Program-made: the position numbers | Shown: in pieces, positions 18,001 to 21,000 of the stretch | Layout: each line of letters opens with the position of its first letter | Numbering within the stretch: the stretch's first letter is position 1 | Origin: a virus | Lineage: Duplodnaviria; Heunggongvirae; Uroviricota; Caudoviricetes | Direction: 5' to 3' (one strand) | IMG/VR virus record: IMGVR_UViG_2541047926_000013 | Location: 1 to 26,967 of that record | Length of the DNA stretch: 26,967 nt

Positions 18001-21000
18001 AACGCCATCGCCTACAAAGAGCAGCGCGATAAAAAAGGCAGTGAGCTGAAGCAGGCGACTGCCACCATTACTGACATGCAGCAGCGCCAGCGTACTGCTG
18101 ATGCACTCGATGCTAAATACACGAAGGAGTTAGCTGATGCGAAAGCTGAAAATGATGCTCTTCGGCGCGAGCTTGATAATGGTGGTAGGGTGCTCGTCAA
18201 AGGAAAATGCCCTATGCCATCCTCAGCCGAAACCTCCAGCGCCTCCGGCATGGGCAATGATGCCTCCGTCGAACTCTCTCCAGTTGCTGGACGAAACGTT
18301 CTCGGTATCCGGGACGGAATTATCCGCGACCAAACAGCACTGAGAACGCTTCAGGAATACATCAGGACGCAATGCCCGAAATAATTTTTTTGCAAATCAC
18401 AAAGTCCATTTAATGAGCCTCGCGATGCGGGGCTTTTTTATGTCCGCAGTAAACGCGCATCTCACGCGCATATTAACGAGAGCCTTTCAGTAAGCGAGCC
18501 TGAGAAATGCCGTTATAGGTGGCGACCTCTCTCGGGCGGCTTTTCTGTGAGACAGGCTCACTTTCTAAAAGGTAAAGACGCTATGAAAGCAATCACGCTT
18601 TTTAATACACCGATCCGTGTTGATGAATCAGGAATGATCTGCCTCACTGATATGTGGAAAGCCAGTGGTAAAAGTGAATCTGAATCTCCGTACCACTACC
18701 TGCGAAACAAGCAGACCAAAGAGTTCTTAGCCGAGCTGGAGAAAAACCACGAATCTGTGGTTTTTACTGAGCGCGGTGTACACGGTGGAACATATGGCGG
18801 GAAGTTTGTTGCTTACGATTATGCGGCTTGGTTAAACCCCGGGTTCAAGTACGCGGCCTATAAAGTCCTCGATGACTACTTCACTGGAGAACTTCAGCAT
18901 CGCAACAGCTTAAGTGCGCAGCTCAACATGAAATGTCATGAGTTTGACCAGAAGAAAGACATGGCGAGCTTCTGCGGACAAGGGCTGGCGGCATGGCGCT
19001 ATACGAAGCCAGTGTTGGTCGCTGAGATTAACTCCCTGGCTAACCAGCTGCAGATTACGATCCCCGGGCTTCCGGGATGAGTGATCGTGTCATTGAATGC
19101 GCCTCCAGAGCGGGGCGCGACTTCTCAGAGTTCATGAAAGGCGAGAAGGGCATGATGGAAGCATTGGCCTCGGTGGATGAGTTTGGCGAGCAGCTGCGCC
19201 TCAACGGCTGTGTCAATCATCACTTTGTTAGCTACATGATGCGGAACTCGATCATGCAGGCATTCATGGACATGGCAAAAGCCGAGAGGAAAGAAGAGCG
19301 CCGGCGTAAGCGAGCGGAAGCAAAAGCGAAGTAGCCATTACAAAGCCCATCTACGGGTGGGCTTGATAATGAAACCGGAATTTATTCTGGGTAACCAGTT
19401 ACGGCAGTACAGCGATACAACCCAAGCCAGTAAGTGGGGAAATAACACTGGCAGCCACTGAAAGATGAACCTCCAGCCTTATGGCAAAAAAGATTCTTTG
19501 TGGTGGCGGACTGATGGAAAGACATCGGTTATTGCAGAGACCATTCAATGAGTGGTCTCGACAATGGCTTATACCCTACACGGGATAACTTAACTGATAT
19601 CCCTTTTAACGGATAAACGGAGCCAACAATGGCAGAGAATGTCGGCATTATGGCAGTGAAATTTGGATAAATCGGAGATTAGTACATATGCCGCCACGAA
19701 TCCCAAAAGCCTGCCGTGTTCGCGGTTGCCGCCATACCACCACAGATCCGTCAGGCTATTGTGAAAGCCACAAAAGCGAAGGCTGGACGCAATATAAGCC
19801 AGGTCAGTCCCGTCACCAGCGCGGTTATGGTTCGAAGTGGGACGTTATCCGCGCGCGTGTGCTGAAGCGTGACAAAGGCCTGTGCCAGTTGTGCCTGCGT
19901 GCCGGTGTGGTACGTGAGGCGAAAACCGTTGACCACATCATCCCTAAAGCGCATGGCGGCACAGATGCCGACAGCAATCTGCAGAGCCTGTGCTGGCCGT
20001 GCCATAAGGCGAAGACGGCCCGTGAACGGCTAAAGTGATAATAATTCTCAACTGTCTGAGGGGAGGGGCGGGTCAAATCCCTGTGACCTGACGTCTTCCG
20101 GACTGCCCGCCCCATCGTTTTTTTATACCCGCGAAAAATGAAATTTAACCAGGAGTGCCGCATATGGCTGGAACGGCGGGGCGTTCCGGGCGTCGCCCCA
20201 AGCCAACGGCGCGCAAGGCGCTGGCCGGAAACCCCGGCAAGCGAGCCCTGAACAAAGATGAACCTGTTTTTACGCCCATCAAAGGTGTTGAGCCACCGGA
20301 GTGGTTCGCAGAAGAAGATCTCCCTCTCGCCACGATCATGTGGCAACTGACAACCAAAGAACTCTGCGGTCAGGGCCTGCTGTGCGTGACTGACCTAGCG
20401 GTACTTGAGCGGTGGTGCGTGGCCTATGAGTTCTGGCGACGTGCCGTGAAAAATATTGCCAGACAGGGCAACACCATCACCGGTGCAATGGGCGGTATGG
20501 TCAAAAATCCGGAGCTGACCGCCAAAAAAGAACAGGAGTCCGAGATGAGCAGTACGGGGGCAATGCTCGGACTCGACCCCAGCAGCCGCCAGCGTCTGAT
20601 TGGCCTGGCGGGGAAGAAGAAAACCACTAACCCGTTTCTGAAAATCATCGAATCATGAGCCGGAAATCTTACCCCAACGTAAATGCTGCCAATCAGTATG
20701 CCCGGGATGTCGTGCGCGGAAAGATTGTGGCCTGCCAGTTTGTGATTCAGGCCTGCCAGCGCCATCTTGATGACCTGATGGAGGAAAAAAGTAAGTCGTT
20801 TCGTTACCGCTTCGACAAGGACCTGGCTGAACGGGCCGCCAAATTTATTCAGCTGTTGCCGCACACCAAGGGTGAGTGGGCATTCAAGAGGATGCCCATC
20901 ACGCTGGAGCCGTGGCAGCTCTTTGTGATCTGCTGCGCGTTTGGCTGGGTCAATAAAGGCTCCCGGCTGCGCCGCTTCCGGGAGGTGTATACCGAAATCC

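What the first reader, a model, noticed from the sequence alone, without database searches (positions are those of the whole stretch)
20061..20124. GC-rich inverted repeat with T-tract just upstream of the small terminase: candidate cos site or terminator
GGGGCGGG (20065-20072) and CCCGCCCC (20106-20113) form an 8-bp inverted repeat around a 33-nt spacer, followed by TTTTTTT. The left arm resembles the GC-rich lambda cohesive-end sequence as I recall it. With an HNH endonuclease and P27-type terminase adjacent, this is where an HK97-type cos site would be expected.
Basis: partly seen in the sequence, partly recalled or inferred. Interest (0 to 1): 0.4.

Follow-up and report, generated by a model that had tools for sequence, protein, structure and literature searches.

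The report
Known cos site of SfV-like prophage
The GC-rich inverted repeat lies in the DNA-packaging cut site (cos) of a common E. coli/Shigella SfV/SfI-type prophage, whose 10-base sticky end was already mapped by experiment in an identical sequence, so the finding is real but ordinary.

Summary
The repeat is exactly as described: GGGGCGGG 20065-72, CCCGCCCC 20106-13, a 33-nt spacer, then ATCG and T7. It sits between an HNH endonuclease gene and the small and large terminase genes.

The region is 95-98% identical to Shigella phages SfV, SfI, SfII and SfIV. Run-off sequencing of SfI virion DNA gave a 10-nt cohesive end, TGCCCGCCCC. That sequence is identical to window 20104-20113, which is the right arm plus TG.

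The inverted repeat itself is incidental. The left arm belongs to a conserved G-rich box and the right arm to the C-rich overhang. Across 79 distinct relatives the arms do not covary. Natural variants break the pairing without compensation, and RNAalifold finds no consensus structure. The T-tract belongs to a conserved downstream box (TTTTTAYACCCGCGAAA...), which probably holds the small-terminase site, as in HK97.

A terminator role is unsupported but not excluded.

Extra observation: G-box, GAC|N10 and downstream box are rigidly phased, and the G-box and its spacing to the nick also hold in HK97, phi1026b and Bacillus phage Gamma. The nick context matches the published HNH nicking site AC^CG.

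The parts
19688..20038 (+). HNH endonuclease gene with an N-terminal zinc ribbon (CRVRGC...CESH) and an HNH domain (CQLC...CWPCH). It is the packaging accessory nuclease and the last gene before cos.
   Evidence: Pfam PF01844, E 2.3e-16. 38% identical to HK97 gp74. 41% identical over 105 aa to the Bacillus phage Gamma HNH nickase, E 2e-16.
20060..20079 (+). Upstream conserved cos element: G-box GGGGAGGGGCGGG (20060-72) plus TCAAATC (20073-79). It contains the left arm of the inverted repeat (20065-72). Its function is not established. It may be a termination or nuclease-positioning subsite.
   Evidence: High information content in the gap-free alignment of 79 distinct relatives. Also present in HK97, phi1026b, Bacillus phage Gamma and Serratia OS31. 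The G-box ends 31-32 nt before the nick in the four phages whose genome ends are mapped or deposited, and 30-32 nt before it in 34 of 40 lineage representatives.
20101..20103 (.). GAC immediately 5' of the overhang. The inferred bottom-strand nick lies between 20103 and 20104. The context AC^TG on the top strand reads CA^GT on the bottom strand.
   Evidence: A in 76/79 and C in 72/79 relatives, followed by Y in 70/79 and G in 71/79. Terminase-adjacent HNH nickases cut CG^GT (= AC^CG), with AC^TG as a star site (PMC3592412).
20104..20113 (+). Cohesive end TGCCCGCCCC, a 10-nt single-stranded overhang that I infer to be 3'. It is the right arm of the inverted repeat (20106-13) plus TG. The inferred top-strand nick lies between 20113 and 20114.
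   Evidence: Identical to the 10-nt gap found by run-off sequencing of SfI virion DNA (PMC3636060; SfI record ends). It aligns column for column with the phiE125/phi1026b overhang CGCCCGCTTC (PMC2920897) and with the last 10 nt of the HK97 record.
20114..20148 (+). Downstream conserved cos box: ATCG, T7 (20118-24), ATACCCGCGAAAAAT (20125-39) and GAAATTTAA (20140-48). The predicted small-terminase site is centred on ACCCGCG plus the A-tract, at +14 to about +26 from the cut.
   Evidence: Almost invariant in 80 close relatives. CCGCGAAA occurs once upstream of TerS in 80 of 82 diverse loci. It lies 25 nt from the nick in 35 of 40 lineages. The HK97 TerS site is +15..+29, CTAACCCGATTTTTT, recognised through one G and the shape of the A-tract (PMC11331095).
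20164..20658 (+). Small terminase gene (P27 family). The likely start is ATG 20164, with Shine-Dalgarno AGGAG at 20151-55. The mechanical ORF start is GTG 20155.
20655..22388 (+). Large terminase gene (ATPase plus RNase-H-like nuclease) of HK97 type.
   Evidence: Pfam PF03354 and PF20441. The only PDB sequence hit is HK97 TerL 6z6d, E 1.3e-24. 30% identical to Bacillus phage Gamma TerL, E 2e-68.
22582..23823 (+). Portal protein gene (context only). An HK97-type head module follows: S78 protease at 23765-24451 and major capsid at 24466-25671.
   Evidence: Pfam PF04860; PF04586 and PF05065.

Best explanation
The region 20060-20148 is the cohesive-end (cos) packaging site of an SfV/SfI-type temperate phage, here a prophage, with an HK97-type terminase and an accessory HNH nuclease.

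Shown or taken from the literature:
- The 10 bases TGCCCGCCCC (20104-20113) are the single-stranded cohesive end of mature virion DNA in SfI, which is identical here.
- Packaged DNA therefore starts at 20114 (ATCGTTTTTTT...), runs through TerS, TerL, portal and so on, and ends with the HNH gene, the G-box and ...GGAC-TGCCCGCCCC.

Inferred:
- The overhang is 3'. In SfI both run-off reads lacked the 10 bases, and the aligned phi1026b and HK97 ends are 3' extensions.
- The top strand is nicked between 20113 and 20114, and the bottom strand between 20103 and 20104.
- The bottom-strand nick falls in an AC^YG / YG^GT context. That is the known specificity of terminase-adjacent HNH nickases, so HNH probably makes that nick and the TerL nuclease makes the other.
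- The small terminase ring binds the conserved ACCCGCG + A-tract box about 14-26 bp downstream of the cut, as in HK97. There it recruits TerL for the initiating cut and stalls the motor at the next cos for the terminating cut.
- The 8-bp inverted repeat is a by-product. Its left arm is part of a conserved G-rich box 31 bp upstream of the nick, and its right arm is the C-rich overhang.
- The T7 run is part of the conserved AT-rich stretch between the cut and the TerS site. It is not primarily a terminator tail.
For: Context:
- Gene order is HNH (PF01844), TerS (PF05119), TerL (PF03354/PF20441), portal (PF04860).
- TerL matches HK97 TerL 6z6d at E 1.3e-24.
- The region is 95-98% identical to SfV, SfI, SfII and SfIV.

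Mapped ends:
- The SfI record ends ...GGACTGCCCGCCCC and restarts GTCGTTTTTTT.
- Direct sequencing of SfI virion termini gave a 10-nt gap, 5'-TGCCCGCCCC-3' (PMC3636060).
- The SfIV and SfII papers state that those phages have the same cos site adjacent to the terminase genes.
- Three independently described 10-nt overhangs align in the same columns right after GAC: SfI, phiE125/phi644-2/phi1026b CGCCCGCTTC (explicitly 3' extensions, PMC2920897), and HK97 (10-nt 3', PMC9410871 and PMC11331095).

The repeat is not selected for pairing:
- Close relatives carry left-arm variants (GGGGGAGG, GGGACGGG, GGGGCGAG) with an unchanged right arm.
- In-register pairing averages 4.34 of 8 over 79 distinct sequences, against 4.51 with permuted partners.
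- A flexible-register test against chimeras gives P = 0.37.
- RNAalifold gives no consensus structure.

The downstream box is conserved and phased:
- It resembles the HK97 TerS site, ACCCG plus an A/T tract.

HNH nick-site match:
- Published specificity is in PMC3592412; column counts are.
- The window HNH is 41% identical to N.phiGamma.
- The two ends of the phage Gamma record repeat the 9 nt CGCCGCCCC, preceded by TAC at the right end.
Against: - No virion DNA of this particular prophage was examined. The element could be a defective prophage whose cos is intact but unused.
- The 3' polarity for the SfV group is my inference from the word 'gap' in the SfI paper. It is not stated there.
- GenBank records of SfV and SfIV are linearised 7 nt upstream of the SfI-mapped end (window 20097). 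I could not read the original SfV paper to see why.
- Which nuclease cuts which strand has not been shown for any member. HK97 gp74 is described as non-specific.
- In this lineage the hairpin plus T7 does have terminator-like geometry.
Confidence: 0.92

Rival explanations
1. The hairpin plus T7 is a Rho-independent transcription terminator. It would end transcription of the lysis/HNH genes or insulate the head genes, either instead of or in addition to cos function.
For: - As RNA the segment folds into a long GC-rich hairpin, GGAGGGGCGGG...CCCGCCCCAUC, at -28.4 kcal/mol. It ends 1-4 nt before U7.
- In the Xenorhabdus clade the same position carries a canonical 7-10 bp hairpin with a 6-8 nt loop, directly followed by T6-7. 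So terminator-like geometry recurs at this site in some lineages.
Against: - The terminator scan did not call it, because the loop is 31-33 nt.
- Stability is not beyond shuffles: z = -1.69.
- The stem is broken without compensation in natural close relatives.
- There is no covariation across 79 sequences, and chimeras pair equally well.
- RNAalifold finds no consensus structure.
- HK97, phi1026b and the Pseudomonas relatives keep the T-run at a fixed distance from the cut, not from any hairpin.
- From general knowledge of lambdoid phages: late transcription must read through cos into the head genes under Q antitermination.
Confidence: 0.1
2. The inverted repeat is functional at the DNA level. 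The G-box and the G-rich complement of the overhang would be two inverted copies of one protein-binding motif, or would extrude as a cruciform, for a dimeric packaging nuclease or terminase.
For: - Both elements are conserved. The strand asymmetry, G-rich on top upstream and G-rich on the bottom at the cut, holds in all relatives, including HK97 and phage Gamma.
- Spacing between them is fixed at 31-32 nt.
Against: - Sequence complementarity is no better than between unrelated lineages.
- Only 4 of 79 distinct sequences have 8/8 pairing.
- In HK97 and phi1026b the overhang complements (TTTGGCGGCG, GAAGCGGGCG) do not resemble their G-boxes.
- The nick positions are not symmetric about the repeat centre.
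- The DNA hairpin is weak: -13 kcal/mol, z = -1.6.
Confidence: 0.08
3. The site is a remnant in a defective prophage with no current function. The sequence would be conserved only because the insertion is recent.
For: - The window is a prophage-like segment, and no virions were examined.
- The same 136-nt region occurs in 1166 of 5426 complete E. coli genomes. Many of those prophages may be cryptic.
Against: - All packaging genes flanking the site are intact full-length ORFs: HNH, TerS, TerL, portal, protease and capsid.
- From 20097 to the TerS start the sequence is identical to the isolated phage SfV.
- The element is conserved with fixed phasing down to 49% TerS identity, which indicates purifying selection on the site.
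Confidence: 0.1

Closest known systems
cos site of Shigella flexneri serotype-converting phages SfI / SfV / SfII / SfIV
   Same: - Same gene context.
- 95-98% nucleotide identity.
- The 10-nt cohesive end TGCCCGCCCC mapped on SfI virion DNA is identical to window 20104-20113.
- The G-box and downstream box are identical apart from 1-2 substitutions.
   Different: - Nothing of substance differs.
- SfI has G instead of A at the first packaged base (20114) and T instead of C at 20080.
- The window is a prophage copy whose virions were not examined.
HK97 cos site (gp74 HNH, gp1 TerS, gp2 TerL; 10-nt 3' overhang; TerS site at +15..+29)
   Same: - Position between the HNH and TerS genes.
- Homologous TerL (E 1.3e-24) and HNH (38% identity).
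- A 10-nt overhang directly after GAC.
- A G-box plus TCAAATC 31-32 nt upstream of the nick.
- ACCCG followed by an A/T tract downstream.
(PMC11331095, PMC9410871)
   Different: - Overhang sequence is CGCCGCCAAA in HK97 and TGCCCGCCCC here.
- ACCCG sits at +18..+22 in HK97 and +14..+18 here.
- HK97 gp74 lacks the N-terminal zinc ribbon (PMC3592412).
cos site of Burkholderia phages phiE125 / phi1026b / phi644-2
   Same: - TerS about 51% identical.
- Ten-base 3' extensions CGCCCGCTTC in the same alignment columns after GAC.
- The same G-box, and the same CCGCGAAAT downstream box.
   Different: - 7 of 10 overhang bases are shared.
- There is no G-box/overhang complementarity.
- The T-run is only 4 long.
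Bacteriophage lambda cos (cosQ-cosN-cosB, 12-nt 5' overhang GGGCGGCGACCT, gpNu1/gpA, IHF)
   Same: - Same logic: a nicking site flanked downstream by a small-terminase site and upstream by a further element.
- GC-rich cohesive end.
- Location at the junction of the lysis genes and the terminase genes.
   Different: - The lambda end sequence is absent here.
- There is no IHF consensus near the site.
- The overhang is 10 nt and inferred to be 3', not 12 nt and 5'.
- TerS is P27 family, and an HNH accessory nuclease is present.
- The G-box is 31 bp from the nick and unrelated in sequence to cosQ.
Nicking sites of terminase-adjacent zinc-ribbon HNH endonucleases (N.phiGamma and relatives; Xu & Gupta 2013)
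   Same: - The window HNH is 41% identical to N.phiGamma.
- The inferred bottom-strand nick context is (C/T)G^GT, that is AC^(C/T)G on the top strand. This equals the published CG^GT specificity and its AC^TG star site.
   Different: - Those enzymes were assayed on plasmid DNA, not on their own cos sites.
- No assay exists for this protein.

Membership tests
HK97-type (HNH-assisted) 3'-overhang cos site | Lies between an HNH endonuclease gene and the small/large terminase genes, followed by the portal gene and an HK97-type head module | tested here: met
   ORFs and Pfam domains: HNH 19688-20038, TerS 20164-20658, TerL 20655-22388, portal 22582-23823, S78 protease, PF05065 capsid.
HK97-type (HNH-assisted) 3'-overhang cos site | Large terminase homologous to HK97 gp2 | tested here: met
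   The only PDB sequence hit is HK97 TerL 6z6d, E 1.3e-24, covering residues 112-556.
HK97-type (HNH-assisted) 3'-overhang cos site | Virion DNA carries defined 10-nt 3' single-stranded ends generated at this site | not testable with these tools
   No virion DNA of this prophage is available. The identical sequence in SfI gave a 10-nt gap, TGCCCGCCCC, on run-off sequencing (PMC3636060). The 3' polarity is inferred from that gap and from the aligned phi1026b and HK97 ends.
HK97-type (HNH-assisted) 3'-overhang cos site | Small-terminase recognition site about 15-29 bp downstream of the cut, made of a specific G:C contact next to an A-tract | tested here: inconclusive
SfV/SfI-group cos site | Sequence identity of the cohesive end and flanks with the experimentally mapped SfI cos | tested here: met
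   Window 20059-20113 equals the SfI right end except for one base (20080). The overhang matches 10/10. Megablast identity is 98% or more.
Lambda-type cos site | 12-nt 5' cohesive end GGGCGGCGACCT or a close variant at cosN | tested here: not met
   No match within 3 mismatches anywhere in 20040-20160. The lambda sequence is as quoted in PMC12315714.
Lambda-type cos site | IHF site and gpNu1-type small terminase with R-site repeats in cosB | tested here: not met
   No WATCARNNNNTTR match near the site. TerS is PF05119, the P27 family. There are no direct repeats beyond chance 7-11-mers.
Rho-independent (intrinsic) terminator | GC-rich stem with a short loop, directly followed by a U-run | tested here: inconclusive
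   The 8-9 bp GC stem and U7 are present, but the loop is 31-33 nt and 1-4 nt separate stem and U-run. The scan did not call it. The fold z-score is -1.69.
Rho-independent (intrinsic) terminator | Stem maintained in relatives (conservation or compensatory change) | tested here: not met
   Left-arm variants occur without compensation. Pairing averages 4.34 of 8 against 4.51 with permuted partners. The chimera test gives P = 0.37. RNAalifold gives no structure.
Known structured RNA / tRNA-like element | Match to an Rfam family or a tRNA/tmRNA model | tested here: not met
   The Rfam gathering-threshold scan has no hit at this locus. ARAGORN finds no tRNA in the window.

The most novel reading that the evidence does not exclude
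The upstream G-box (GGGGAGGGGCGGG plus TCRAA) may be a cos subsite not described in the papers I could read. It is held 31-32 bp, three helical turns, from an HNH-type nick site (GAC^YGCC). It is shared by HNH-associated cos phages from Proteobacteria (SfV group, HK97, phi1026b, and Pseudomonas, Xenorhabdus and Moraxella prophages) to Firmicutes (Bacillus phage Gamma).

On this reading it travels with the conserved TerL/HNH pair, while the downstream box travels with the TerS type. It would act as a cosQ-like termination or nuclease-positioning signal. The 10-nt 3' overhang would arise from an HNH nick on the bottom strand at AC^YG and a TerL nick on the top strand.

I could not read Juhala 2000, Kala 2014 or Allison 2002, so this may already be described.
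Probability: 0.3. Interest if true: 0.5.

Novelty: already known. Interest (0 to 1): 0.25.

Why it matters
For this window it fixes the genome ends of the prophage. Packaged DNA would start at 20114 and end at 20113, with a 10-base sticky end. This gives the natural orientation for annotating the element and for predicting what can be cos-transduced.

More generally, the comparison gives a phased three-part template: G-box, 31 nt, GAC|N10, 25 nt, CCGCGAAA. That template locates cos sites in this large family of P27-TerS/HNH prophages directly from sequence; the same 136-nt region is in about a fifth of complete E. coli genomes. The G-box, its spacing and the AC|YGCC cut context, though not the CCGCGAAA box, also hold in HK97 and Bacillus phage Gamma.

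The comparison also suggests a testable division of labour between the HNH and TerL nucleases, a question the HK97 structural papers leave open.

Tried and rejected
Searches at the site that found nothing:
- Lambda cohesive-end match: none at the site within 3 mismatches.
- IHF consensus: none near cos.
- Rfam and tRNA scans: nothing at the locus.

Structure tests that gave no support:
- A conserved RNA or DNA hairpin across relatives: RNAalifold gives no structure.
- Local hairpins upstream of the cut are only slightly shifted from mononucleotide shuffles.
- An apparent excess of long G-box/overhang stems over a simple shuffle disappeared with the proper chimera control.

A second TerS site:
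- The 13-mer TTTATACCCGCGA recurs inside TerL at 21794-21806.
- It is absent at that position in the Klebsiella, Pseudomonas and Burkholderia relatives, so I treat it as coincidence.

Homology of the window TerS to HK97 TerS:
- BLASTP and hhalign are negative.
- PDB phmmer finds nothing.
- Foldseek is non-significant.

Breadth of the G-box architecture:
- It is absent directly upstream of TerS in Streptococcus phage Javan346 and a Coprococcus phage.
- In Vibrio phage H2 the HNH gene abuts TerS.
- So the architecture is widespread but not universal for the P27 TerS family.

Literature:
- The original papers Allison 2002 (SfV), DeShazer 2004 (phi1026b) and Kala 2014 (HNH) are not held.
- Full-text searches for the bare overhang strings returned only unrelated primer hits.
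- MAFFT mis-gapped phage Gamma, so I counted its spacing directly.
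Full report
OBSERVATION. GGGGCGGG lies at 20065-20072 and CCCGCCCC at 20106-20113, with 33 nt between them. ATCG follows, then seven T (20118-20124). Perfect 8-bp inverted repeats with loops of 40 nt or less are common: the window has 49 and shuffles average 17. An all-G/C one is rare, at 0.09 expected per shuffled window. Folded alone, the 69-nt segment is only marginally more stable than shuffles: as RNA -28.4 kcal/mol with z = -1.69, and as DNA z = -1.62. The terminator scan did not call it, because the loop exceeds 8 nt.

CONTEXT. The repeat lies in the 125-nt gap between two genes. Upstream is an HNH endonuclease gene (19688-20038, PF01844). Downstream is a P27-family small terminase gene (PF05119). 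After that come the large terminase (PF03354/PF20441), portal (PF04860), S78 prohead protease and HK97-family capsid genes. The large terminase's only PDB sequence match is HK97 TerL (6z6d, E 1.3e-24). The small terminase most likely starts at ATG 20164, behind a Shine-Dalgarno AGGAG at 20151-55. That start matches SfV orf1 and the 164-aa database homologues.

WHAT IT IS. Megablast shows 95-98% identity to the Shigella flexneri phages SfV, SfI, SfII and SfIV, and several of those linear records begin inside this intergenic region. The SfI record ends ...GGACTGCCCGCCCC and begins GTCGTTTTTTTATACCCGCG. The SfI paper reports direct sequencing of virion DNA termini. Comparison with the prophage revealed a 10-nucleotide gap, 5'-TGCCCGCCCC-3', and the authors conclude that SfI packages by a cos mechanism as SfV does (PMC3636060). 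The SfIV and SfII papers state that those phages carry the same cos site adjacent to the terminase genes. That 10-mer is identical to window 20104-20113.

The cohesive end is the right arm plus TG, not the left arm. The lambda cohesive end (GGGCGGCGACCT, quoted in PMC12315714) has no match here within three mismatches. Because both run-off reads lacked the 10 bases, I infer a 3' overhang: templates with recessed 5' ends stop short, whereas 5' overhangs would appear in both reads.

RELATIVES. I collected 80 near-identical IMG/VR loci, 80 genome loci with 49-98% TerS identity, and the ends of HK97, phi1026b, ST64B and other phage records. Anchoring on CCGCGAAA gives a gap-free alignment of about 120 bp for 79 distinct sequences. 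That motif is found exactly once upstream of TerS in 80 of 82 loci. The sequences come from Enterobacterales, Xenorhabdus/Photorhabdus, Gilliamella, Pseudomonas, Burkholderia, Comamonas, Moraxella and Herbaspirillum.

The alignment has three conserved blocks separated by variable DNA (information profile):
- a G-box, GGGGAGGGGCGGG, followed by TCAAATC or TCGAAAG;
- GGAC followed by a C-rich decamer;
- (A/G)TCG(T/A)(T/A)TTTTTA(Y)AC-CCGCGAAA(W)(W)T(R)AAA(K)TT, running into the TerS ribosome-binding site.

The experimentally described overhangs fall in the same columns, directly after GAC:
- SfI, TGCCCGCCCC;
- phiE125/phi644-2/phi1026b, CGCCCGCTTC, explicitly ten-base 3' extensions (PMC2920897) and equal to the last 10 nt of NC_005284;
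- HK97, a 10-nt 3' overhang (PMC9410871 and PMC11331095), whose record ends CGCCGCCAAA.

The spacing is rigid. The G-box ends 30-32 nt before the nick in 34 of 40 lineage representatives. CCGCGAAA starts 25 nt after the nick in 35 of 40.

IS THE INVERTED REPEAT FUNCTIONAL? The evidence says no.
- In close relatives the right arm and everything downstream are almost invariant. The left arm varies (GGGGGAGG in several loci, also GGGACGGG and GGGGCGAG) with no compensating change.
- Over 79 distinct sequences, in-register Watson-Crick pairing averages 4.34 of 8. Randomly permuted partners give 4.51, and slid registers give up to 4.57. Only 4 sequences have 8/8.
- I then allowed any register and G-U pairs. 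An apparent excess over a simple shuffle vanished against the appropriate control, chimeras that join the G-box of one lineage to the overhang of another. The means were 3.35 and 3.22, P = 0.37.
- RNAalifold returns no consensus structure.

The perfect 8-bp match in this lineage is therefore a by-product of a G-rich box lying upstream of a C-rich overhang.

TERMINATOR RIVAL. In this lineage the RNA hairpin can be extended (GGAGGGGCGGG/CCCGCCCCAUC) so that it ends 1 nt before U7. A moonlighting terminator therefore cannot be excluded. Three points argue against a primary terminator role. The T-run keeps a fixed distance from the cut and from CCGCGAAA in lineages with no hairpin, such as HK97, phi1026b and Pseudomonas. 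The stem is not maintained in relatives. And late transcription in lambdoid phages has to cross cos (established knowledge). The Xenorhabdus clade does carry a canonical short-loop hairpin enclosing GAC|YGCC directly before T6-7. I record that as an unexplained side observation.

HOW IT MOST LIKELY WORKS. This is inferred by analogy with HK97. There, the TerS nonamer binds +15..+29 (CTAACCCGATTTTTT). It reads one G through Arg128 and the A-tract through DNA shape. It stalls the motor so that the cut site sits at the TerL nuclease. The HNH protein gp74 stimulates cleavage, and one proposal is that each nuclease cuts one strand (PMC11331095; PMC9410871; PMC10359639; PMC13595911).

For the nicks, GAC before the overhang is nearly invariant: A in 76/79, C in 72/79, then Y in 70/79 and G in 71/79. 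Terminase-adjacent zinc-ribbon HNH nickases cut CG^GT (= AC^CG), with AC^TG as a star site (PMC3592412). The window HNH has the same N-terminal zinc ribbon and is 41% identical to N.phiGamma. The bottom-strand nick implied by a 10-nt 3' overhang falls exactly in that context (CA^GT here, CG^GT in HK97 and phi1026b). This suggests HNH cuts the bottom strand and TerL cuts the top strand.

AN EXTENSION. Bacillus phage Gamma is the source of N.phiGamma, and its TerL is 30% identical to the window's. Its record ends ...GGGTAGGGGCGGGTCGAAAAAC-N21-TAC|CGCCGCCCC, and the same 9 nt are repeated at the left end. It therefore has the same G-box, and the same 31 nt from G-box to nick, as the window; HK97 and phi1026b have 32. 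The G-box travels with the TerL/HNH pair across phyla, while the downstream box differs with TerS type. No upstream element is mentioned in the HK97 papers I could read.

VERDICT. The feature is real and is the cos site of a very common prophage family; the 136-nt region occurs in 1166 of 5426 complete E. coli genomes. Its cohesive end has already been mapped experimentally in SfI. The inverted repeat and the T-run are parts of separately conserved cos subsites, not a hairpin signal. For the finding as given, novelty is 'already known' and interest is low. The comparative architecture is a modest, testable add-on.

Noticed in passing
window 20060-20079, and L006 (HK97), L093 (phi1026b), L179 (Bacillus phage Gamma) and L182 (Serratia OS31) right-end regions: A G-rich box followed by TCRAA is conserved 31-32 nt upstream of the cos nick. 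It occurs in HNH-associated cos phages from Proteobacteria to Firmicutes. It is not mentioned in the HK97 packaging papers I could read.
   Followed up: partly
L121, L123, L125-L128, L135 (Xenorhabdus prophages), aligned to window about 20092-20124: In this clade the cut site GAC|YGCC sits in the 6-8 nt loop of a 7-10 bp hairpin (for example GCCCCAAGG-gactgcca-CCTTGGGGC). The hairpin is directly followed by T6-7, which is canonical terminator geometry overlapping cos. Stem sequences differ between members.
   Followed up: partly
window 21794-21806 (+), inside TerL: The 13-mer TTTATACCCGCGA of the conserved downstream cos box recurs exactly 1.67 kb downstream (codons L-Y-T-R-E). It is not present at that position in the Klebsiella, Pseudomonas or Burkholderia relatives, so it is probably coincidence.
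   Followed up: yes
window 20155 vs 20164: The mechanical ORF start of the small terminase (GTG 20155) overlaps the Shine-Dalgarno sequence. The real start is almost certainly ATG 20164, giving 164 aa as in SfV orf1 and most database homologues.
   Followed up: yes
GenBank records U82619 (SfV), KC814930 (SfIV), KC736978 (SfII), AY055382 (ST64B) relative to window 20039-20149: Deposited linear records of these cos phages start at four different places: window 20097, 20097, 20039 and 20149. None is the SfI-mapped end at 20114. Record starts are not virion ends in this group.
   Followed up: partly
window 7145-7367 (-): Rfam match above gathering score to the gammaproteobacterial sRNA STnc100 (RF02076, 49.1 bits), in the early region of the prophage.
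   Followed up: no
window 25679-25699 (+): This is the only other all-G/C 8-bp inverted repeat in the window (GGGGCGCGG-aa-CCGCGCCCC). It lies 8 nt after the stop of the major capsid gene and has no T-run. It is likely a post-capsid-gene stem-loop.
   Followed up: partly
window 15976-17028 (+) and 18547-19080 (+): A DNA methylase gene (PF01555) lies just upstream of the holin gene. A KilA-N/ORF11CD3 gene lies between the Rz gene and the HNH gene. Both are accessory genes inserted in the late region.
   Followed up: no
L089 (Vibrio phage H2), L180 (Streptococcus Javan346), L181 (Coprococcus phage): These phages have P27-family TerS genes but no G-box / GAC-N10 / CCGCGAAA module directly upstream. 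In Vibrio H2 the HNH gene abuts TerS with a 6-nt gap. Their cos or pac sites must lie elsewhere or differ.
   Followed up: no
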